Under the pieces are notes generated by a model. It had not been told where the DNA came from. It saw nothing but the letters and a program-made list of their open reading frames with translations, and did not search any database. 64,000 nucleotides of DNA, from assembly GCA_902544525.1 (NCBI GenBank), contig CACCCN010000001.1, forward strand, positions 41,289 through 105,288, given 5' to 3'. Numbering within the stretch: position 1 is the first letter of the stretch; each line of letters begins with the position of its first letter. The DNA is from an uncultured Pelagibacteraceae bacterium. Its GTDB lineage: Bacteria > Pseudomonadota > Alphaproteobacteria > Pelagibacterales > AG-422-B15. Position numbers and translations under genes: made by a program. This document shows positions 43,089 to 51,017 of this stretch, one piece after another.

Positions 43089-45137
43089 TTAATTACTTTT
43101 TACTAAATTGATGAGAAAAGCGTTATCAAGTGCGCTTTCTTCTAGAGCATTCAACCTGCCACTTTTGCCAGCGTGTCCGCCTACCAAGTTCATTTTCATT
43201 ATAATCGGGTTTTTTGAAGTGGTGTTATCTCGAAGTTTAGGCACATATTTTGCTGGCTCATAATATTGCACTTGAGAGTCATATAAGCTGGATGTGACTA
43301 ATACTGCAGGGTAATTGGCTGGTTTAATGTTGTCATAAGGTGAGTAGCTTTTTATATAATCATACTCTTCTTTATTTGCTGGATTACCCCATTCTTTATA
43401 TTCAAATGTCGTTAAGGGTATAGACTCGTCTGACATTGTAGTGACAACATCAACAAATGGTACAGCTGAAATAATGCCGGTATACAATTCTGGCTCTATA
43501 TTGATTACAGCCCCCATTAAAAGACCACCAGCGCTGCCGCCCATCGCATAAACATTCTTTGAATTACCATAACCTTGATCCAATAAAGATTTAGTTGCAT
43601 CAATAAAATCATAAAATGTGTTTTTTTTGTTAAGGATTTTACCATCTTCATACCAAAAACGTCCCATCTCAGAACCCCCTCTAATATTTGCAACCGCAAA
43701 TATAAATCCTCTATTTAACAATGGTAAGATTGAAGTACGAAAGGCTGCATCAATAATTATACCATAAGAACCATAGCCATAAACTAATATAGGCGCTTGC
43801 GATAAATCAGTACCTTTTTTATAAACCAATGACACGGGAACTTTAGTTTCATCACGAGCATCTATTTTTAAACGTTCAACTTCATATAAGTTTTCATCAA
43901 AATTGCTTACACTTTGCTGCCACACTAATTCACTAGTACCAGTGGCAATATCTTCTTTAAAAATAGAACTTGGTTTTTTGGGGCTGGAATACCCATAATA
44001 AAACTCATTTGCTAGATATTCATTGTTGGTCGCCAAGTAGCAGCTAAAAGCAGGTTCACTAAACTCAATATACTGTTTATCAAGGGTTTGCCGGTGCATT
44101 TTGAGAATTTTTGGCAATCCGTCCTCTCGCACTTCAAGATAAATATAATCAGGAAAAGCCTCAAAATCTTCGATTAGCATGGCGCTATTATGCTCTATTA
44201 CCGTCTCCCAGCTATTGTAATCATTAATTTGTGCATGACTAAATTTTAGCAATGCAAAATTTTTTTTATCATCAGCATCACTAATGGCGTAAAAGCATTC
44301 AGGAGTATCTTCCACTGAATACAAGTGTTTTTCAGATCGGGTTAATACACAAAATGGTTTACTGGTTTCATCTTCTAAATCTAATAACCAAGTTTCAGAT
44401 GCTTCAGTTTTACTAATATAAATATTTAGATATTTTTTAGTTCGAGACTCATAAATATTGAGATGGAATTCCATATCATGTTCTTCATAGATTAGAATAT
44501 CTTCACTTGCGTCTGTGCCAAGTTTATGTTTATAAACTTTATTCTCAATTAGAGTAACTGGGTCTTTTTGTGCATAATAAATGCAAGTATTTTGTTTATC
44601 CCATACGACACTACCAGAACTGCGTTCAATTGCACTGTCGATAATCTTCCCCGATGCTAAATCTTTTACTTTTATATTATATTCACGCCGACCTGATAAA
44701 TCTTCAGCATAAGCAATAAGTAAATTATCTGAAGAAGGCGTTAATGATGCCACATTGAAATAATCTAGACCTTTTGCGAGTACATTAACGTCTAACACTA
44801 ACTCTTTTGCTCCATCAAGCTCGCGATAGTAAGTTTTATATTGTTGATCTGCACTAATTTCAGAAAAGTATAGATAGTCTCCATACTTAATCTTCATGGA
44901 TACTTCATGTGGTGGAATGAAGCTAACTAACTCATCATAGATTTCTTGTCTACAGTCACCTTTGCTTGCAAACCAGTCTTCTAAATATTGATTTTCAGCT
45001 GCTAAATAAGAAATAACTTCTGGATCTTTACGGGTATCATCTCGTAACCAATAATAATCATCAATGCGCTCATCACCATGGGCGCTATGAACTTTAGGGA
45101 TCTTTTTAGGTTGTGGTGGTTTGAGTAAATCAGACAT
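43089..45137 (-). CDS. ptrB: Oligopeptidase B (S9A prolyl oligopeptidase family)
   Basis: N-terminal beta-propeller region (HGDERIDDYYWLRDD) and a C-terminal catalytic domain with GGSAGGLLMG (the nucleophile Ser). I prefer the ATG at 45137 (MSDLLKPP); the ORF track extends to 45185. Confidence 0.85.
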   Translation of the reverse strand: MSDLLKPPQPKKIPKVHSAHGDERIDDYYWLRDDTRKDPEVISYLAAENQYLEDWFASKGDCRQEIYDELVSFIPPHEVSMKIKYGDYLYFSEISADQQYKTYYRELDGAKELVLDVNVLAKGLDYFNVASLTPSSDNLLIAYAEDLSGRREYNIKVKDLASGKIIDSAIERSSGSVVWDKQNTCIYYAQKDPVTLIENKVYKHKLGTDASEDILIYEEHDMEFHLNIYESRTKKYLNIYISKTEASETWLLDLEDETSKPFCVLTRSEKHLYSVEDTPECFYAISDADDKKNFALLKFSHAQINDYNSWETVIEHNSAMLIEDFEAFPDYIYLEVREDGLPKILKMHRQTLDKQYIEFSEPAFSCYLATNNEYLANEFYYGYSSPKKPSSIFKEDIATGTSELVWQQSVSNFDENLYEVERLKIDARDETKVPVSLVYKKGTDLSQAPILVYGYGSYGIIIDAAFRTSILPLLNRGFIFAVANIRGGSEMGRFWYEDGKILNKKNTFYDFIDATKSLLDQGYGNSKNVYAMGGSAGGLLMGAVINIEPELYTGIISAVPFVDVVTTMSDESIPLTTFEYKEWGNPANKEEYDYIKSYSPYDNIKPANYPAVLVTSSLYDSQVQYYEPAKYVPKLRDNTTSKNPIIMKMNLVGGHAGKSGRLNALEESALDNAFLINLVKSN

Positions 45138-45190
45138 TATTTTCTCATCATCATTACGCCATATTCCAGACGAAATAAAGCCCAATTATT

Positions 45191-45733
45191 TTGTTACAAA
45201 ATAAGAAATCAACACTTAAAAGAAAGGATTTACAACCTGTGAGAAAAACCCACTATATCAATCCACGCTACTATCAAAACGAAAAAACTATTCTCCTCAA
45301 CCCCTCAAAACCATTTTCTCGAAAAAGAAAACCACCAAAAAAACCAGGGCTTTTTAAATATATATTACTCGTATTTTTATTATTTTCTGCCTTTATTGGC
45401 TACTCAGCTTATGCAGAAGACTATTATTGTAAACAAAAAGCACTTGTGGGCTTCAAAGGTATACCAGAAAATGATCTAAAAGTTGTTGAATTCAATCCCA
45501 TGGAGTTTGAAGTCGATACTACTAATCCTAAGTGGAACTGTGAATATCCAGAAGGTGAAGACTTTCTATATTGTGCAGATTATTTCAGTCAGTTCATTAT
45601 GCAAAAAGAAACTAAAGAGTTCACTCTCACATATCACAATGGCTTAATTAAAAATGCTCAAGATAATTTATATGTAGGTTATGGGCAGTGCATTCCAAGA
45701 TTTGATGTGCCTAATGATATTGTGATTGGTTAA
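45191..45733 (+). CDS. Hypothetical single-pass membrane/secreted protein with a Cys-containing C-terminal domain
   Basis: The frame is open for 180 codons but has no ATG before the hydrophobic segment LFKYILLVFLLFSAFIGYSAYA; candidate starts are TTG 45191 or GTG 45239. The ectodomain is about 105 aa with 4 Cys. Confidence 0.35.
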   Translation: MLQNKKSTLKRKDLQPVRKTHYINPRYYQNEKTILLNPSKPFSRKRKPPKKPGLFKYILLVFLLFSAFIGYSAYAEDYYCKQKALVGFKGIPENDLKVVEFNPMEFEVDTTNPKWNCEYPEGEDFLYCADYFSQFIMQKETKEFTLTYHNGLIKNAQDNLYVGYGQCIPRFDVPNDIVIG

Positions 45734-45963
45734 CTTATATTTTTATCAATCATAGTTTTTAAAATTAGATCAGATATTTCTTTATCCATTGAAGGAGATT
45801 TAAGGGTTACACCAGCCATATCAGCAGCCACTACCCAACTTGATGTTTTATTATTCCAGAAGACAGCAACTTCACCACCATATTTAGTAGCAGCAAATGC
45901 AACAGGTAGATCATTCCAATCTCTAATCGAAGATAATAACTGTATTGGATGCTTTAGTTCCAT
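45730..45963 (-). CDS. Hypothetical small protein (paralog of the upstream 109-aa ORF)
   Basis: 77 aa. Its start forms a TAATG overlap with the upstream stop. It shares an ...AVF.N....W V..DM.G core with the 109-aa ORF. Confidence 0.4.
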   Translation of the reverse strand: MELKHPIQLLSSIRDWNDLPVAFAATKYGGEVAVFWNNKTSSWVVAADMAGVTLKSPSMDKEISDLILKTMIDKNIS

Positions 45964-46292
45964 TAACTCGCAAAGTACTTATCATAAATTTCGTTATGAA
46001 CAATTTCCTGGGTCATCTTTTCCTTTATTGCACCTATAGCATCATTATCATAACTAGATAATCCATTTTGAGGATGTACAAATTGTCCAATATTCATATC
46101 TATTTTTACCCATTTTTGTTGTTCTAAATTGAAAACAGCCAATCCATAATTTCCAGATTTCAATTTAACCATAGCAATAATTAATCCATCTCTAGATCTT
46201 AAGTCTGTAATTTCTATTGGTATTGCTATTTCGTTATCGTTTTTATAGTCATCTAGACTTATTATTTTTACTTTCAAAAGCCTTCCTTTCAC
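45963..46292 (-). CDS. Hypothetical small protein
   Basis: 109 aa. GTG start with no visible SD. It overlaps the upstream 49-aa ORF by 44 nt in the +1 frame. Confidence 0.4.
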   Translation of the reverse strand: MKGRLLKVKIISLDDYKNDNEIAIPIEITDLRSRDGLIIAMVKLKSGNYGLAVFNLEQQKWVKIDMNIGQFVHPQNGLSSYDNDAIGAIKEKMTQEIVHNEIYDKYFAS

Positions 46293-46398
46293 ATAGTTTT
46301 GTATTTATTTTTCTATTTTTTGAGATTGAGAAGGTTGACCAACCATCTTTAAAGATTGGGTCATCTTGTTTTTTAAATGACCTGCTTATTATTTTCAT
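46249..46398 (-). CDS. Hypothetical small basic protein (49 aa)
   Basis: ATG preceded by a strong SD (GGAGGTaaaaATG). Translates to MKIISRSFKKQDDPIFKDGWSTFSISKNRKINTKLCERKAFESKNNKSR. Below the ORF-track length cutoff. Confidence 0.3.
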   Translation of the reverse strand: MKIISRSFKKQDDPIFKDGWSTFSISKNRKINTKLCERKAFESKNNKSR

Positions 46399-46490
46399 TT
46401 TTACCTCCGTTTTAGCGTTTTAAAATTAGCACTCGCAATAGGAACAAATTAGTGCATAATTAGTCTACATTATCTTTTTTTAATTTTAAA

Positions 46491-47381
46491 GTGTTAAAAA
46501 ATATAGAAATGCAAATCAATAAAGAGTTACAGGAAATAATTGACGATAATATTCAGAATATCAATAATGGTATTAAAAAAGCATGCAAAGAAATCACTTC
46601 GTTTTCTCAGCCTCAAATAAGAAATTATTTACATGAGTCTGCTTCAATAAAACTTAGAGATGATCGCATTTCTAACGAAATATTAAGCCTTTTCAAAAAA
46701 GAAAATTATCAGAAAAGTAAAATTAAGGATATTTCCAATAAGTTTAGTTTATATCATGATGATGTAGAAAAATTCTTGATAAGAAAAACACATCATGATC
46801 TTGAAAAAAAGATTAACAAAAATAGTTTAGCCGATAAGTTATTAGAAATAATTTTTGAAGATTCAGGTTTTGATAAAAAAAGATTTAATTTTATTAGAAC
46901 AAATTTAGCCAACTTATTTCCATATAGTTTTTATCATTTTATATTAAACGGTTATAACAAAAATACCGTAGGTATAGATAGCGGTATTATGTCAGCAAAT
47001 GCGGGAGATAGTAGTGAACATTTTTTTGTTGCCAGAGCAATCCTTGCTGGCTTTAATGCGTCAGTTGTAGATGTTAGATCTTCAGCTTATGATGTCGTAA
47101 TTGATATAAATAATAGATTATTAAAGGTTCAAGTTAAAAGTTCAGATAATGATGTATTTAGTAGAAAGGGAAGAGATAGAGGTGGCCAGGGCATAGACCC
47201 AACTGATCCAACTAATAGAGGTAAAATAGTTTCATCTAAAGATACTGACTTACTTGTGTTTGTTATGAAAAAAACTGGTACTATTTTTATTTTTCCAAAA
47301 AATGAAATTGATAAACTACCAACTACACTAAAAGGTAGAGATTATATTAAAAATATGGAGAACTGGGATCTAATATCATAG
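46491..47381 (+). CDS. Putative Type II restriction endonuclease: C-terminal PD-(D/E)xK nuclease domain with an N-terminal helical (possible HTH) region
   Basis: The core SSEHFFVARAILAGFNASVVDVRSSAYDVVIDINNRLLKVQVKSS fits an E...D-x13-QVK PD-(D/E)xK motif (Hjc/PDDEXK_5-like). Its 3' end overlaps the convergent C5-methyltransferase gene by 6 nt. Confidence 0.55.
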   Translation: MLKNIEMQINKELQEIIDDNIQNINNGIKKACKEITSFSQPQIRNYLHESASIKLRDDRISNEILSLFKKENYQKSKIKDISNKFSLYHDDVEKFLIRKTHHDLEKKINKNSLADKLLEIIFEDSGFDKKRFNFIRTNLANLFPYSFYHFILNGYNKNTVGIDSGIMSANAGDSSEHFFVARAILAGFNASVVDVRSSAYDVVIDINNRLLKVQVKSSDNDVFSRKGRDRGGQGIDPTDPTNRGKIVSSKDTDLLVFVMKKTGTIFIFPKNEIDKLPTTLKGRDYIKNMENWDLIS

Positions 47382-48389
47382 GTTTATCGAAAGTTTTATC
47401 TTCCTAGCAATTTTCTCGATTAAATCAACTGTTACAGAATTCCCAGCTTGTTTGTATAGTTGGGACCTCGCAACATCTTTTGGAAATTTAATATTCTTAA
47501 AACCTTGTAATCGGAAACACTCTTTTGGTGTTAGCTTTCTGATGCCAAAATCATCCAGAATTAATGGTACATTATGCCCACCAGTACCCATATTAGCAGT
47601 TAATGTAGGGCACTCGTTGCTCTGATTTTCTCGAACATAGACCCTACGCCACTGATAAACTGTATCTTTGCGCTTAATAGTTTTCCTTAATTCTTTATAT
47701 GCATAAAAATCCTGGCGATAATAGAATTTTTCATCAACTTCTTTCTTCTCAAGGATTTGTTGAATATTTTTTTTACGCTTAGAGGGTTGAATATGATTTT
47801 TATCAAATAAATAACTGCTATATTTTTTTTGATTTTTTAAATCAAATTCCCAGTCTTTCTCATCTCTAAAACAAACAATAATGGTTCTTTCACGATTCTG
47901 GGGAATGTCTGTATAAACAGAAGTATTATAAACTTCCCAAAAAACTGAATAACCAAGTTCATGAAGTGTTTCAATAATAATATCTTTAGTTCTCCCTCCG
48001 TCATGTCCACTTAAATTCTTTACATTTTCAAGCATTAAAGCTTTAGGTTTTTCTTCTTTCTCCTCTAATTTTTTAATTAAATTCATTATTGAGTAAAATA
48101 AATTCCCGCGGGGATCCTTAAACCCTTTTTGATAACCTGCAACCGAGAATGCTTGACATGGGAACCCTCCAACTAATACGTCAACTGGGGTTAACTCATC
48201 AATAGTAAGATCATTAATATCTTTTTCTATGAGTTTATGTTCAGGATGATTTAATCTATACGTTTTACAGGCATTCTTATCAATTTCATTTGACCAATTA
48301 ATTTCAAAGCCAGCCCGTTCAAACGCAAGTTCAATTCCACCTACTCCTGAAAATAAACCTCCTACTGTAAGTTTTTTATTTACCATCAA
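47376..48389 (-). CDS. dcm: DNA (cytosine-5)-methyltransferase
   Basis: All hallmark motifs are present: I LFSGVGG, IV GGFPCQAFS, VI LMLENVKNL, VIII PQNRERTIIV, X AGNSVTV. Confidence 0.9.
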   Translation of the reverse strand: MMVNKKLTVGGLFSGVGGIELAFERAGFEINWSNEIDKNACKTYRLNHPEHKLIEKDINDLTIDELTPVDVLVGGFPCQAFSVAGYQKGFKDPRGNLFYSIMNLIKKLEEKEEKPKALMLENVKNLSGHDGGRTKDIIIETLHELGYSVFWEVYNTSVYTDIPQNRERTIIVCFRDEKDWEFDLKNQKKYSSYLFDKNHIQPSKRKKNIQQILEKKEVDEKFYYRQDFYAYKELRKTIKRKDTVYQWRRVYVRENQSNECPTLTANMGTGGHNVPLILDDFGIRKLTPKECFRLQGFKNIKFPKDVARSQLYKQAGNSVTVDLIEKIARKIKLSINL

Positions 48390-48837
48390 TTTTTTTAAAC
48401 TCTTGTTCAGTTATTGATTTTAAGCCCCCTTGAAAATATAGACCGTACTTATCTTTATTTTTTATAAAATCCAGTTCATTTATTTTAGATTTAACAGAAA
48501 AAGGTTGTTCAAAAATTTTAATCTCTTTGATTTTAATATATTTTTTAATAACAGACTTTTGATATGATTGATTAAAATTGTCGTAATGCATATCAAAGTC
48601 TTCTATGATCTTATCAGTAGTAAATGATGCAACAAAATGTTGGGAGTATTTATTTGTTCCAGCAAGATAAATTAAAAAATGACTTTCATTTTTAATTTTT
48701 TGAATGCCTGGGGTATTTCTGTATAAAGGCCATTTTTTTTCTTCAAGTCTTTTCATACTTATATCAAAAGCTGATACAAGCTGATCACTGTTATCGACAT
48801 CATATCCATCATTACAAATTAAATAAAAGTAGTTCAT
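48376..48837 (-). CDS. Hypothetical protein, PUA-like (EVE/ASCH-type) fold suspected
   Basis: 153 aa. The pattern MNYFYLICN...KKWPLYRNTPGIQKIKNESHFLIYLAG...LKSITEQEFKKI resembles stand-alone EVE/ASCH domains. This is by-eye pattern similarity only. Its stop overlaps the dcm start by 14 nt. Confidence 0.35.
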   Translation of the reverse strand: MNYFYLICNDGYDVDNSDQLVSAFDISMKRLEEKKWPLYRNTPGIQKIKNESHFLIYLAGTNKYSQHFVASFTTDKIIEDFDMHYDNFNQSYQKSVIKKYIKIKEIKIFEQPFSVKSKINELDFIKNKDKYGLYFQGGLKSITEQEFKKIDGK

Positions 48838-48863
48838 GCGTTTTATAATCCTAACTATAAAGC

Positions 48864-50198
48864 TTATTTACACCAATTTGTTTTATTATCCCGATCATAA
48901 ACAACTCCCAAGTTTTTACTTACAATATTAGTGGATACATCTTCGCCATCAACTATTAGATGAGCAAGAATTCTACCAAAATAATCTTCCTTATAATCTG
49001 TTTTAAACTTAATAGTTGCAGCATTAGCAATTAGGTTATTGAGATAATCTCTAGCTTTTAAGCCTAGTTCAAGCTCAGCCTCACATTTGGGTTTGGATAT
49101 TTCTGGGGTGTCTAATTCTAATAATCTGATTTTAGTATCAATTCCATTCAACGTTACGTAGCAGGTATCCCCATCATAGCAGTATTGATCTTTGTATTTA
49201 CGTAAAACAATTTTTTCCTCTACTAATTGTGAGTAAGCTATATAAATTTCTTCAGCGCTATTGATAGCTTTGACACCTGCTCCTGAAAACCGAGGTGGTA
49301 TAACATTAGGTGACGCATAAATATGACCTCCATTTAATAATGTATATAATCCAACAATTTTACTGCCATTGCTCTCTTTTTTAATAACAGAAGTTTCACC
49401 ATCTAAATTTTTAAATGCGATAATCTTCTCTGTGTACATAGATGTTAAATCTCTCCAATAATTGTAGGTTGCATCTGAAGATATAACAAATCCTCTGCTG
49501 TCATTTCCAAGAATTGAGACTAAACCACCTTGATGCGGATTGATTGTGTCAACCGCACCATTAAAAATCAGCATGTTGACTTCACGATTTGATCTAGAAC
49601 AATCGTTATTTTCCTCAATCGGAAGATTTGCAGCAAAGGCGGCGTATAATAAAATATCTTCTGGAATTTCATAAGCAAGTTTAAAAACCATATGACCACC
49701 ATTTGACATACCACTCACTACAATTCTGTTGGTGTCGATTCTAAAGTCAGTTTTTAGAAATTTTACTACTTGCTTAAAATAGCCTACGTCATCAATGTCT
49801 AATTCATTGGCGTCATAATCTGCTGTGCCCCTACAATCGTTCCAATGATTTTTATAGCCTTGCGGGTAAACAACTAAGAAACCTTTTTCCTCGGCTAGAT
49901 ATTCAAAGTCATATCCCGTAAAAACTCTCATTCCTTCTGCACTCTCTCTAGAGCCATGCAAAGCAAAAAAAACAGGGGCATCATTTTTTAGTGAACTTGG
50001 AATATATACACCATAAGTCCTGGTTAAATCATCATGCGTAAAAGAATAAGTTTTATATGTTCCTTGTGAAGGTGGATCTCTTAAGACTTCAGCCGTTGTA
50101 TAGTAGCTTAAAACTGCTAAGGCAAGATAAATACCAAAGACTATACCAATAAAAAATAAAAAATAATTTGAGGCAATAATTTTTTTTAATGGAATCAT
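48864..50198 (-). CDS. Membrane-anchored fusion: alpha/beta-hydrolase (PHB-depolymerase/LpqC-type esterase) plus C-terminal staphylococcal-nuclease (SNase) domain
   Basis: N-terminal TM helix. The esterase part has ALHGS and the nucleophile elbow GMSNGGHM. The C-terminal DGDTCYV...IRLLELDTPE...YFGRILAHLIVDGEDV matches SNase Ca/catalytic motifs (compare RLLLVDTPE in S. aureus nuclease). ATG at 50198; the ORF track uses TTG 50219. Confidence 0.7.
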   Translation of the reverse strand: MIPLKKIIASNYFLFFIGIVFGIYLALAVLSYYTTAEVLRDPPSQGTYKTYSFTHDDLTRTYGVYIPSSLKNDAPVFFALHGSRESAEGMRVFTGYDFEYLAEEKGFLVVYPQGYKNHWNDCRGTADYDANELDIDDVGYFKQVVKFLKTDFRIDTNRIVVSGMSNGGHMVFKLAYEIPEDILLYAAFAANLPIEENNDCSRSNREVNMLIFNGAVDTINPHQGGLVSILGNDSRGFVISSDATYNYWRDLTSMYTEKIIAFKNLDGETSVIKKESNGSKIVGLYTLLNGGHIYASPNVIPPRFSGAGVKAINSAEEIYIAYSQLVEEKIVLRKYKDQYCYDGDTCYVTLNGIDTKIRLLELDTPEISKPKCEAELELGLKARDYLNNLIANAATIKFKTDYKEDYFGRILAHLIVDGEDVSTNIVSKNLGVVYDRDNKTNWCK

Positions 50199-50279
50199 AC
50201 TAAATAAATTAAGTAACAAATCATTCCTAAAAATCCTAGTAGTGTACCTAAAGTTAAAATTAAAATTTTATACTTCATA

Positions 50280-51017
50280 TTAATATTTAACTTCCATAAA
50301 ATATAAACCTTCAGCCGGTGCAAGCGCACCACACTTGCTTCTGTCTTTTGCATCTAATGCTTGTTGCAACCGCTCAATATCCCATAGTCCTTCACCTACC
50401 ATTTTTATCGTACCAACCAGGGATCGGATTTGATGTTGCAGGAAAGATGGTGCTACAAAACCAAAATAAATATTATCATCTTGTTGCGTAATTTTGCAGC
50501 TATTCAGGGTTTTTATCGGAGATTTTGACTGGCAATTAACTGATCGAAACGTGGTAAAATCATGCTTTCCTTCAATGATGGGAGCGCAGGCTTGCATCTT
50601 TTCTAAGTTTAGATTTTTCATAACCAGCCAAGCTCTGCCTTTCTCAATCGATAATGGTGAATTACGATTGACGATGCGATACAGATATTTTCGTTCTTTA
50701 GCATCAAACCTCGAGTGAAATTTAGCGTCTACTTCAGTCACATCTAAAACTGAAATGGGATAAATTTTTAAATGATGATTTAAACCAGTTTTGATTGAGT
50801 AAGTATCAAGTTCTTTGTGTTGAATATCAAAATGTGCTACTTGCCCAGTGGCATGTACGCCTGCATCAGTCCTACCGGCACCAAACAAAACTGGTTTTTC
50901 TTGAAACATACTTTCAATCGCTGTTTCAATGCACTCTTGAACGGATAAACCATTTTCCTGTCGCTGCCAGCCAACAAATGGAGTGCCATCGTATTCAATA
51001 ATTATTTTATATCGCAT
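50280..51017 (-). CDS. truA: tRNA pseudouridine(38-40) synthase
   Basis: Motifs YDGTPFVGWQRQ and GAGRTDAGVHA (the catalytic Asp). Confidence 0.9.
   Translation of the reverse strand: MRYKIIIEYDGTPFVGWQRQENGLSVQECIETAIESMFQEKPVLFGAGRTDAGVHATGQVAHFDIQHKELDTYSIKTGLNHHLKIYPISVLDVTEVDAKFHSRFDAKERKYLYRIVNRNSPLSIEKGRAWLVMKNLNLEKMQACAPIIEGKHDFTTFRSVNCQSKSPIKTLNSCKITQQDDNIYFGFVAPSFLQHQIRSLVGTIKMVGEGLWDIERLQQALDAKDRSKCGALAPAEGLYFMEVKY

What the first reader, a model, noticed from the sequence alone, without database searches (positions are those of the whole stretch)
45138..50279. Accessory island between ptrB and truA: R-M core plus reader-like protein, hydrolase-nuclease fusion and coupled micro-ORFs
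This is the only stretch of the window made mostly of genes with no housekeeping identity. It holds a convergent PD-(D/E)xK nuclease / C5-MTase pair. Upstream of the MTase on the same strand are a PUA/EVE-like 153-aa gene (14-nt overlap) and a TM-anchored alpha/beta-hydrolase-SNase fusion (26-nt gap). To the left are three translationally coupled small ORFs and a start-codon-less secreted/anchored Cys protein. Two nuclease folds, one DNA methylase and a possible modified-base reader in 5 kb is the signature of a defence island. I do not recognise this gene combination as a named system. Caveat: the SNase fusion abuts truA (ATG 1 nt after its stop), so it may belong to the core truA operon. In that case the true island would be about 45.1-48.9 kb.
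Basis: partly seen in the sequence, partly recalled or inferred. Interest (0 to 1): 0.7.

Follow-up and report, generated by a model that had tools for sequence, protein, structure and literature searches.

The report
Restriction-modification cassette with methyl-base reader
A strain-variable slot between two housekeeping genes of a marine SAR11-like bacterium holds an ordinary cut-and-methylate DNA defence pair, but the methylase is partnered by a small "modified-base reader" protein that turns out to accompany cytosine methylases in dozens of marine genomes and whose role is unknown.

Summary
The window is Pelagibacterales DNA, and truA-ptrB is a strain-variable slot. Near-identical strains (flanking proteins 97-100% identical) carry truA-hydrolase/SNase-ptrB with nothing else, or different cargo. 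A 90%-identity relative has truA directly next to ptrB.

The block is a mosaic, not one system:

- **Backbone gene:** the membrane-anchored esterase-SNase fusion occurs at this site in strains that lack the R-M genes. It starts at ATG 50198. The ATG next to truA opens a conserved 27-aa micro-ORF.
- **Type II R-M pair:** a C5-MTase and a 296-aa PD-(D/E)xK REase. The REase family sits beside MTases with the same target-recognition motif in Campylobacter, Helicobacter and Bacillus.
- **EVE protein:** the 153-aa protein has an EVE/PUA-like fold. Of 61 evaluable marine loci with a relative, 56 have a C5-MTase within 200 nt, paired with at least 8 unrelated REase families.
- **Unexplained cargo:** p77, p109 and the anchored p180 have no assigned function. 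p49 is probably not a gene.

The stand-alone EVE plus m5C Type II R-M trio was not described in the papers I could search. How the EVE protein works is inferred, not shown.

The parts
43089..45137 (-). ptrB (oligopeptidase B), the conserved left flank. The probable start is ATG 45137.
   Evidence: It is 97% identical in L167 and L168, where it directly follows the esterase-SNase gene. L013 has truA and ptrB separated by 9 nt.
45239..45733 (+). p180/p164, a membrane-anchored Cys-containing protein with a GTG start (alternative TTG at 45191). The N-terminal ~75 aa (cytoplasmic tail plus TM anchor) are backbone. The C-terminal ectodomain is strain-specific.
   Evidence: One search shows GTG at 45239. 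The 164-aa form is in a 16-member cluster. The N-terminus is 96-97% identical to p241 of L167 and L172, and the sequences then diverge completely. Codon differences against L097 are 38 synonymous to 26 non-synonymous. No family hit.
45730..45963 (-). p77, a small protein of unknown function.
   Evidence: Cluster of 9 members at 90% identity; one variant was seen on 48 contigs. No family hit. Weakly similar to p109 (E 0.02). Absent from L097 and L148.
45963..46292 (-). p109 (more often called as 103-104 aa), a small protein of unknown function. Its stop overlaps the p77 start by 1 nt.
   Evidence: Cluster of 25 members. 3 synonymous to 3 non-synonymous differences against L011, which is inconclusive. 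No family hit.
46249..46398 (-). p49, a doubtful ORF. The conserved DNA here may be the promoter or leader of the small-ORF unit.
   Evidence: Singleton cluster. Differences are 1 synonymous to 3 non-synonymous and 2 to 8. A 155-nt stretch (46304-46458) is conserved at 83% in L097 and L148 next to a different REase. A promoter-like site lies at 46497-46469 on the minus strand.
46491..47381 (+). Type II restriction endonuclease (296 aa from GTG, or 290 aa from ATG 46509). It has an N-terminal ~165-aa all-helical domain and a C-terminal PD-(D/E)xK domain with the motif D201...Q214-V-K216.
   Evidence: Full-length homologues (~40% identity) in Campylobacter and Helicobacter abut a C5-MTase (M->R with start/stop overlap), and the Bacillus homologue lies about 1.5 kb from one on the opposite strand. 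All three MTases share the window MTase's target-recognition motif. 7 synonymous to 0 non-synonymous differences against L011.
47376..48389 (-). C5 cytosine DNA methyltransferase (337 aa), convergent with the REase. Probable GCNGC specificity (inferred).
   Evidence: The motif YQWRRVYVRENxSNxCPTLTANMGTGGHNVPL is shared with MTases whose partner passes the Pfam RE_Bsp6I threshold.
48376..48837 (-). Stand-alone EVE/PUA-like protein (153 aa), directly upstream of the MTase and overlapping it. Family-invariant residues are W36, Y57, F124 and G132.
   Evidence: Linked to a C5-MTase in 56 of 61 marine loci. 24 synonymous to 19 non-synonymous differences with no indels against L097.
48864..50198 (-). 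Membrane-anchored alpha/beta-hydrolase (PHB-depolymerase-type esterase) fused to a staphylococcal-nuclease domain (444 aa). A backbone gene of the locus, not part of the R-M cassette.
   Evidence: Homologues of 444-446 aa sit between truA and ptrB in strains without R-M.
50195..50278 (-). 27-aa hydrophobic micro-ORF (MKYKILILTLGTLLGFLGMICYLIYLV). It starts 1 nt after the truA stop, and its stop overlaps the fusion's ATG.
   Evidence: L168 has the same length, position and hydrophobic character (MKYKISILTLGIVLGFAGTVYFLIFIA), although its fusion allele is only 72% identical.
50280..51017 (-). truA, the conserved right flank.

Best explanation
The truA-ptrB interval of this Pelagibacterales genome is a strain-variable slot. 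In this strain the slot holds four kinds of content.

1. **A backbone gene.** A membrane-anchored, probably exported esterase-SNase fusion preceded by a 27-aa micro-ORF.
2. **A Type II restriction-modification cassette.** A C5-MTase methylates a short site (probably GCNGC). The convergent PD-(D/E)xK endonuclease cuts that site when it is unmethylated.
3. **A stand-alone EVE-fold protein**, translationally linked to the MTase.
4. **Unrelated small cargo**: p77, p109 and the variable ectodomain of an anchored protein.

The EVE protein belongs to a family that is a conserved companion of C5-MTase genes, whichever REase is present. I infer that it binds a modified cytosine in an aromatic pocket (W36, Y57, F124). 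I also infer that it works with the methylase side of the system, most likely by reading the 5mC mark the MTase makes. For example, it could occupy or flag methylated or hemimethylated sites.

**Shown:** gene identities, protein folds, variable presence of the block, and the EVE-MTase linkage.
**Inferred:** the EVE ligand, the MTase specificity, and any mechanism for the EVE protein.
For: **Variable slot**
- L013 has truA and ptrB separated by 9 nt.
- L168-L171 have truA-fusion-ptrB, with flanking proteins 97-100% identical to the window.
- L167 and L172 carry other cargo.
- L012 has a different 8-kb set of genes after truA.

**R-M pair**
- MTase: Pfam 7e-87, closest solved structure M.HhaI at 5e-46.
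- REase: fold and family evidence.
- REase homologues lie next to or near MTases with the same target-recognition motif in three other genera.
- REase codon differences against L011 are 7 synonymous to 0 non-synonymous.

**EVE protein**
- EVE fold.
- A profile of the family finds 1093 proteins. These include EVE-HNH and EVE-PD-(D/E)xK fusions of the kind seen in modification-dependent nucleases.
- 56 of 61 evaluable loci have a C5-MTase within 200 nt (53 divergent, 3 co-directional).
- The partner REases fall into at least 8 unrelated families. One is HinP1I-type (2.5e-74) and one is Bsp6I-type (26.1 bits against a cut-off of 25).
- EVE and MTase pairwise identities co-vary: Mantel r 0.57, reached by 0 of 2000 permutations.
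- The only invariant residues are aromatic or glycine, which fits a binding module and not an enzyme.
Against: - No experiment exists and no ligand is known.
- The window protein itself misses the Pfam EVE threshold.
- A 28%-identical family member sits beside an N6-adenine Type IIG system. The wider family is therefore linked to R-M systems in general, not to m5C specifically. This weakens the idea that it reads the partner's 5mC.
- Its fused relatives sense foreign modifications.
- No EVE-MTase fusion appeared among the top 150 family hits.
- The MTase-EVE intergenic regions contain no GC sites that could be methylated.
- GCNGC is not depleted in the window: 131 sites against 88 expected.
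- The GCNGC assignment rests on one partner family that only just passes a Pfam threshold.
Confidence: 0.62

Rival explanations
1. The EVE protein is a Type IV-like sensor of foreign hypermodified cytosines (5hmC, glucosyl-5hmC or fully 5mC-substituted phage DNA). It would complement the Type II pair: the REase cuts unmodified invaders, while EVE blocks modified ones or marks them for a nuclease. The self mark made by the MTase would not be its ligand.
For: - Family relatives are fused to HNH, NucS-like and Hjc-like nucleases.
- Structural neighbours include VcaM4I, an EVE-HNH modification-dependent enzyme.
- Bell et al. 2020 (PMC7641849) proposed this role for stand-alone EVE proteins next to Type I R-M systems.
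- A relative sits beside an m6A Type IIG system, so linkage does not depend on the kind of self mark.
Against: - EVE153 has no nuclease domain.
- The partner REases come from at least 8 unrelated families, so a conserved physical hand-off to the REase is hard to picture.
- The tight and specific adjacency to the 5' end of the MTase gene has no explanation under this model.
Confidence: 0.25
2. The whole 45.1-50.3 kb block is one integrated multi-gene defence system. The SNase fusion would be a second effector, EVE its sensor, and the small ORFs its regulators.
For: - The fusion, EVE and the MTase lie on one strand, with a 26-nt gap and then an overlap.
- One family member is an EVE-alpha/beta-hydrolase (DUF900) fusion.
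- PADLOC has a candidate model containing an SNase domain.
Against: - The fusion occurs at the same site without EVE, MTase or REase in near-identical strains.
- EVE-MTase-REase occurs without the fusion in about 60 loci.
- The fusion has an N-terminal membrane anchor. Its esterase part has abundant stand-alone homologues in Pelagibacteraceae and SAR86.
- p77 and p109 are missing from L097 and L148, which do have EVE and the MTase.
Confidence: 0.05
3. EVE is the cassette's expression controller, a substitute for a C protein. It would bind nucleic acid at the MTase/EVE promoter or leader to time MTase expression against REase expression.
For: - No helix-turn-helix controller gene was found in the island.
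- 53 loci have the MTase and EVE genes divergent across a shared 37-117-nt region that is conserved within subgroups.
- PUA-like domains can bind RNA (established knowledge of the superfamily).
Against: - The intergenic regions have no methylatable GC sites, so a methylation-sensing switch is excluded.
- In the window lineage the gene is inverted and overlaps the MTase, so the shared promoter is lost. The gene is kept all the same.
- The EVE fold has no known sequence-specific operator binding.
Confidence: 0.08

Closest known systems
Orthodox Type II R-M systems with a C5-MTase (for example HhaI/HinP1I at GCGC, Bsp6I/Fnu4HI at GCNGC)
   Same: Separate MTase and REase genes in convergent orientation. 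The MTase has the full set of C5 motifs (PCQ, ENV, QxRxR, GN). The REase has a PD-(D/E)xK core. The cassette sits in a variable island. The same REase family sits next to or near MTases with the same target-recognition motif in Campylobacter, Helicobacter and Bacillus.
   Different: There is a third conserved gene (the stand-alone EVE) at the MTase 5' end. There is no C protein and no Vsr in the island. The REase family has no characterised member that I could identify, and public annotation calls it a 'group I intron-associated endonuclease'.
Stand-alone EVE proteins next to Type I R-M and SWI2/SNF2-nuclease systems (Bell et al. 2020, PMC7641849)
   Same: A small single-domain EVE protein encoded beside an R-M system and predicted to read modified bases.
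   Different: Those cases are Type I systems or helicase-nuclease systems, mostly in archaea. This is a Type II m5C cassette in marine bacteria, with a stereotyped position at the MTase start and interchangeable REases. That paper's text does not mention Type II m5C partners.
EVE-nuclease modification-dependent restriction enzymes (VcaM4I/TspA15I family, EVE-McrB)
   Same: The same fold. Members found by the same family profile carry HNH or PD-(D/E)xK domains.
   Different: EVE153 has no nuclease or NTPase domain, and it is encoded with a methylase that makes modified DNA in the same cell.
UHRF1 SRA domain with DNMT1 (eukaryotic hemimethylation reader plus maintenance methylase)
   Same: A PUA-like base-flipping reader genetically coupled to a C5 cytosine methylase. 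This is an analogy for one possible mechanism.
   Different: There is no evidence of any physical interaction or hemimethyl preference here. The domains are EVE rather than SRA. This is a lead recalled from general knowledge, not a tested similarity.
I-Ssp6803I homing endonuclease (PDB 2ost, Pfam PDDEXK_5)
   Same: The C-terminal nuclease domain of the REase has the same fold and the same D...QxK motif.
   Different: The REase has an extra ~165-aa helical N-terminal domain. Its homologues lie next to or near a methylase, and nothing in the loci examined points to an intron.

Membership tests
Type II restriction-modification system | DNA methyltransferase with the conserved C5-MTase motifs | tested here: met
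   PF00145 at 7e-87 over 324 of 324 profile positions. TIGR00675 at 298 bits against a cut-off of 101. M.HhaI at 5e-46.
Type II restriction-modification system | Separate adjacent endonuclease gene with a nuclease fold | tested here: met
   PD-(D/E)xK domain shown by Pfam (26.0 bits against 26.1, borderline), PHROG 5018 at 7e-11 and Foldseek 2ost at 1.7e-6. Family members lie next to or near MTases with the same target-recognition motif in 3 other genera.
Type II restriction-modification system | MTase and REase recognise the same sequence; methylation blocks cleavage | not testable with these tools
   GCNGC is inferred only from identity of the target-recognition motif with MTases whose partner passes Pfam RE_Bsp6I.
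EVE domain (Pfam PF01878, PUA-like superfamily) | Sequence match to the family profile at its curated threshold | tested here: not met
   The window protein has no Pfam hit. Its NCBIfam PRK00809 match (3e-11) is below cut-off. Relatives found by its own profile do pass: P0005 at 26.0, P0167 at 28.8 and P0268 at 29.5 bits, against a cut-off of 23.
EVE domain (Pfam PF01878, PUA-like superfamily) | PUA-like beta-barrel fold | tested here: met
   AF2 pLDDT 78.7. The top Foldseek hits are all EVE or YTH proteins at probability 1.0.
EVE domain (Pfam PF01878, PUA-like superfamily) | Binds a flipped modified base | not testable with these tools
   The only support is that W36, Y57 and F124 are invariant across 42 family members.
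Modification-dependent (Type IV) restriction enzyme of the EVE-nuclease type | Reader domain fused to, or in an obligate complex with, a nuclease or McrB-type NTPase | tested here: not met
   A 153-aa single-domain protein. No McrB/McrC, HNH or GTPase gene in the island.
Alphaproteobacterial housekeeping EVE (TsaD-GpsA-YciI-EVE operon, PMC7641849) | Conserved operon context | tested here: not met
   The neighbours are the esterase-SNase fusion and a C5-MTase. The operon is described.
Strain-variable genomic island / hot spot | Present or absent, or different cargo, between conserved flanks in close relatives | tested here: met
   At least five configurations occur at truA-ptrB, four of them with flanking proteins 97-100% identical to the window.
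C-protein-controlled R-M / Vsr-linked m5C system | Helix-turn-helix controller gene or Vsr mismatch endonuclease in the cassette | tested here: not met
   No island ORF hits such a family. By sequence inspection only, a Vsr-like gene and a HhH-GPD-like gene each follow EVE in one locus (L158, L160).

The most novel reading that the evidence does not exclude
The stand-alone EVE protein is a true third subunit-like component of m5C Type II R-M cassettes. It would read the cassette's own 5mC mark, for example by recognising hemimethylated sites and steering or stimulating the methylase (a bacterial analogue of UHRF1-DNMT1). Alternatively it would shield the new mark from modification-dependent nucleases, so that the cassette can establish itself in new hosts.
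Probability: 0.18. Interest if true: 0.85.

Novelty: new variant of a known kind. Interest (0 to 1): 0.55.

Why it matters
Type II R-M systems are usually treated as two-gene units, with an optional controller or Vsr gene. Here a reader-fold protein travels with the methylase through repeated swaps of the endonuclease, across dozens of loci in some of the most abundant and most gene-poor bacteria in the ocean. That persistence implies a selected function tied to cytosine methylation.

If the protein reads the self mark, it would be a prokaryotic writer-reader pair. If it reads foreign marks, it would be a nuclease-free arm that covers modified phage DNA. Both ideas can be tested with a 153-aa protein and a three-gene clone.

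The locus also documents, with near-identical strains, how one SAR11-type hot spot exchanges cassettes.

Tried and rejected
- **PADLOC, PHROGs, Pfam and NCBIfam on every island ORF:** nothing for p180, p77, p109 or p49.
- **Phage, plasmid and IMG/VR searches for the EVE protein, and IMG/VR searches for p77 and p109:** no match, so there is no sign of a viral or plasmid origin.
- **Rfam on 42-52 kb:** no RNA family.
- **Promoter and terminator scan:** fewer sites than in shuffled sequence, so uninformative.
- **tRNA scan:** none near the island. The only one in the window is tRNA-Arg at 29.4 kb.
- **Methylation-sensing operator idea:** rejected, because 50 MTase-EVE intergenic regions are pure AT with no GC sites.
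- **GCNGC avoidance as support for the specificity:** not seen, with 131 sites against 88 expected.
- **Search for an EVE-MTase fusion:** none among the long family members. They are nuclease or DUF900-hydrolase fusions.
- **Broad alignments (A2, A3) as metagenome queries:** too diverse for the tool. The narrower A4 worked, so the context survey covers the subfamily carrying the YGLYFQGG motif.
- **p77/p109 paralogy:** only marginal, E 0.02.
- **Housekeeping alphaproteobacterial EVE operon:** the gene context does not match.

Full report
**Source and gene content**

The window is low-GC (about 33%) DNA of a Pelagibacterales bacterium. The closest truA loci are single-cell and metagenome genomes labelled Pelagibacterales/Pelagibacteraceae (AH-269-J06, AG-422-B15).

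All ORFs named in the finding exist. Read on the minus strand, the order is:

- truA (51017-50280)
- a 27-aa micro-ORF (50278-50195)
- an esterase-SNase fusion (50198-48864)
- a 153-aa gene (48837-48376)
- a C5-MTase (48389-47376)
- a convergent 296-aa gene on the plus strand (46491-47381)
- p49, p109 and p77 (46398-45730)
- a plus-strand anchored protein (45191 or 45239 to 45733)
- ptrB (from 45137)

**Corrections to the observation**

- The ATG one base after the truA stop is not the start of the fusion. It opens a 27-codon hydrophobic ORF in another frame. Its TGA overlaps (ATGA) the fusion's real ATG at 50198.
- The micro-ORF keeps its length, position and hydrophobic character in a strain whose fusion allele is only 72% identical. 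It is probably a real small membrane peptide.
- The 'start-codon-less' protein has a GTG at 45239. This is the start in relatives and gives the 164-aa form present in public gene calls.
- p49 is doubtful. It is a singleton cluster with more non-synonymous than synonymous differences.
- p77 and p109 recur in marine metagenomes (clusters of 9 and 25 members) but match no family.

**Is it an island?**

Yes, and the evidence reaches population level. The truA-ptrB interval occurs in at least these states:

| Locus | Similarity to window | Gene order |
|---|---|---|
| L013 | about 90% aa identity | truA stop, 9 nt, ptrB start |
| L168-L171 | truA 98%, ptrB 97%, HlyIII/DUF6854/RecR/YbaB 100% | truA-micro-ORF-fusion-ptrB, 5 nt between the last two in L168; L169-L171 contigs end about 100 nt into ptrB |
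| L167 | flanks 97-100% | fusion-p90-p241-ptrB |
| L172 | truA 99%, fusion allele 89% | truA-fusion-p241-type-ptrB |
| L012 | truA 90% | an unrelated 8-kb gene set after truA, including another SNase |
| L014-L017 | truA about 70% | truA abuts dapE/dapD (L014, L015 read) |

The strain-specific insertion is therefore about 45.4-48.86 kb. It runs from inside the anchored-protein gene to the start of the 153-aa gene.

The anchored protein is modular. Its first ~75 residues (tail plus TM anchor) are 96-97% identical to p241 of L167 and L172, after which the sequences are unrelated.

The fusion allele differs by 28% between strains whose flanks are near-identical. This points to recombination or diversifying selection at this gene. 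I did not resolve which.

The R-M part includes the lowest-GC kilobase of the window (0.261). No integrase, tRNA gene or flanking repeat marks the block.

**The restriction-modification pair**

- The MTase is an unambiguous C5 enzyme.
- The 296-aa protein has a C-terminal PD-(D/E)xK domain with D201 and Q214-x-K216 conserved across 39 homologues. The AF2 model (pLDDT 88.7) matches I-Ssp6803I and Hjc resolvases. The ~165-aa helical N-terminal domain matches nothing.
- The family is well populated: 146 hits, most about 295 aa and about 40% identical.
- In Campylobacter insulaenigrae and Helicobacter the gene directly follows a C5-MTase with overlapping stop and start. In Bacillus the MTase lies about 1.5 kb away on the opposite strand.
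- Those MTases share the window enzyme's target-recognition motif, YQWRRxYVRENxxNxCPTLTANMGTGGHNVPL.
- Against a 96.6%-identical contig the REase shows 7 synonymous and 0 non-synonymous differences.

This is a functional-looking orthodox Type II system. Public annotation of the REase family as 'group I intron-associated endonuclease' reflects only the Pfam family name.

The same motif occurs in marine 326-aa MTases whose convergent partner passes the Pfam RE_Bsp6I threshold (26.1 against 25). I therefore infer GCNGC specificity with moderate confidence. The site is not avoided in the window.

*Fold and family*

- By sequence it is a distant EVE relative: PDB MJECL36 at 3e-5, NCBIfam PRK00809 at 3e-11 (below cut-off), and no Pfam hit.
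- By fold it is clearly EVE/PUA-like. MJECL36, PH1033, VcaM4I, Atu2648, Rpa0253 and THYN1 bound to 5mC DNA are the best matches, followed by YTH domains.
- A word-indexed search found only 5 relatives. A full HMMER scan with the family profile found 1093, of which 582 score at or below 1e-10. Nearly all are ~150-aa stand-alone proteins.
- The few longer members are EVE-HNH, EVE-NucS-like, EVE-Hjc-like and one EVE-DUF900 hydrolase.
- Across 42 members the invariant residues are W36, Y57, F124 and G132. No conserved acidic, basic, His, Cys or Ser position exists. This is the pattern of a binding pocket, not of an enzyme.

*Genomic context (the main new result)*

- A 41%-identical homologue sits in integrase-EVE-260-aa protein-C5-MTase.
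- A metagenome scan returned 71 marine loci. Of 61 with enough flanking sequence, 56 have a C5-MTase ORF within 200 nt of the EVE gene and 2 more have one within 3 kb.
- The usual layout (53 loci) has the MTase and EVE divergent across 37-117 nt, with a candidate REase convergent on the far side of the MTase.
- The window lineage and L101 have EVE followed by the MTase on one strand.
- The MTases are of several kinds: 326-aa, 412-aa, paired 307- and 321-aa, and M.HhaI-like.
- The partner genes fall into at least 8 mutually unrelated families. They include a HinP1I-family enzyme (2.5e-74) and the Bsp6I-like family.
- L097 and L148 have EVE 88% and MTase 87% identical to the window's, with the same target-recognition motif, but carry a different 279-aa convergent gene in place of the 296-aa REase. 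The MTase-EVE pair therefore persists while the REase is replaced.
- EVE and MTase pairwise identities co-vary (Mantel r 0.57; reached by 0 of 2000 permutations).
- The cassettes lie at several chromosomal hot spots: a hisG-like gene (identified by eye from its sequence) in 19 loci, tRNA-Asn in 4 of the 7 loci scanned, and a RecB-like gene (also identified by eye).
- Some cassettes sit beside other likely defence genes. I judged this from sequence inspection of a P-loop NTPase and a STAND-like protein and did not verify it.
- The EVE gene evolves under constraint: 24 synonymous to 19 non-synonymous differences with no indels at 88% identity.
- None of these genes occurs in the phage, plasmid or IMG/VR collections searched.

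**What the EVE protein does**

This part is inference.

- The linkage tracks the methylase, not the nuclease. It holds across MTase specificities. This points to the product (5mC) or the conserved catalytic body of the MTase as the functional partner.
- A methylation-sensing promoter switch is excluded. The shared intergenic regions contain no GC dinucleotide sites.
- Against a strictly 5mC-centred role, a 28%-identical relative lies just downstream of an integrase and an N6-adenine Type IIG R-M enzyme. Also, the fused relatives are of the kind that senses foreign modifications.
- Bell et al. (PMC7641849) described stand-alone EVE genes next to Type I R-M and SWI2/SNF2-nuclease systems. They proposed that these target restriction to modified DNA. 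Their text does not mention Type II m5C cassettes.
- Two further literature searches found no description of this trio. The library is incomplete, so this is not proof of novelty.
- My ranking is: self-mark reader working with the methylase, about 0.35; foreign-mark sensor, about 0.25; expression controller, under 0.1. A substantial remainder is unknown.

**The other genes**

- The esterase-SNase fusion has an N-terminal hydrophobic anchor.
- It has many 444-446-aa homologues in Pelagibacterales, and abundant esterase-only homologues in Pelagibacteraceae and SAR86.
- It is found at this locus without the R-M genes.
- I read it as an exported nuclease/esterase, perhaps for scavenging extracellular DNA. 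That role is inferred from the domains only. It is not an intracellular defence effector.
- p77, p109 and the ectodomain of p180 remain unexplained.

**Verdict**

The 'single unnamed defence system' reading does not hold.

The R-M pair is a new member of a known kind. The conserved EVE companion of m5C Type II cassettes is a new variant of a known theme (EVE proteins beside R-M systems) with an open mechanism. That feature is what makes the locus worth an experiment.

Noticed in passing
window 50195-50278 (-); L168 about 1422-1506: A 27-aa hydrophobic micro-ORF sits between truA and the esterase-SNase gene. It starts 1 nt after the truA stop and its stop overlaps the next gene's ATG. Length, position and hydrophobic character are conserved although the downstream gene is only 72% identical between the two strains.
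   Followed up: partly
window 48864-50198 compared with L167, L168 and L169: The esterase-SNase protein is only 72% identical between strains whose flanking proteins are 97-100% identical. An 89% allele also exists (L172). This could be allelic replacement by recombination or diversifying selection. I did not resolve which.
   Followed up: partly
window 45239-45733 (+); L167 1974-2699 (-); L172 1947-2780 (-): The anchored protein next to ptrB is modular. Its cytoplasmic tail plus TM anchor (~75 aa) is 96-97% conserved, while the ectodomain is swapped for an unrelated one (180-aa against 241-aa forms).
   Followed up: partly
L098, L109, L111, L122, L097 (marine metagenome loci): Nearly identical 326-aa C5-MTases with the same target-recognition motif, each with an EVE gene, are paired with four or five mutually unrelated convergent genes (280-, 195-, 373- and 371-aa families, plus the window's 296-aa family). 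The REase appears to have been replaced repeatedly around a stable MTase-EVE pair.
   Followed up: partly
L012 10741-20092: In the 90%-identity relative AH-269-J06 the space after truA holds a different cargo. By sequence inspection only, it includes a polytopic membrane protein, a Cys-loop-channel-like protein, a TerB-like protein, two very long coiled-coil proteins, a 255-aa SNase-domain protein and a trypsin-like protease.
   Followed up: no
L111 1866-2201, L113 439-774, L133 4003-4335 and about 9 more loci: A conserved acidic 111-112-aa protein (MQQLELFDYRKDYLFES...) with no Pfam or PHROG hit flanks the R-M-EVE cassettes on either side. It could be a flanking core gene or a cassette component.
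   Followed up: no
L158 1018-1416 (-); L160 666-1328 (-): In two loci the gene after EVE looks, by sequence inspection, like a Vsr-type mismatch endonuclease (L158) or a HhH-GPD/FeS glycosylase (L160). These are the usual repair partners for 5mC deamination, so EVE does not simply replace them.
   Followed up: no
L173 1324-6459: A 28%-identical EVE-family protein lies directly after an integrase, an N6-MTase and a 1002-aa Eco57I/MmeI-like Type IIG enzyme, and before a protein of more than 1850 aa with sacsin/NOV_C-like domains. The wider family therefore accompanies non-m5C R-M systems as well.
   Followed up: no
L097 1-336; L090 1-174: Upstream of the 84-88%-identical EVE gene there is no esterase-SNase gene. 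Instead there is about 330 nt without an ORF, conserved between the two contigs. ARAGORN finds no tRNA there, and I did not run Rfam on it.
   Followed up: no
L148 2879-5032; L100 3-350; L101 2596-2913: A RecB/Cas4-like nuclease gene (N-terminus MK..S.TDL.NF..C...; identified by eye) neighbours three different R-M-EVE cassettes. It may mark another hot spot or another island component.
   Followed up: no
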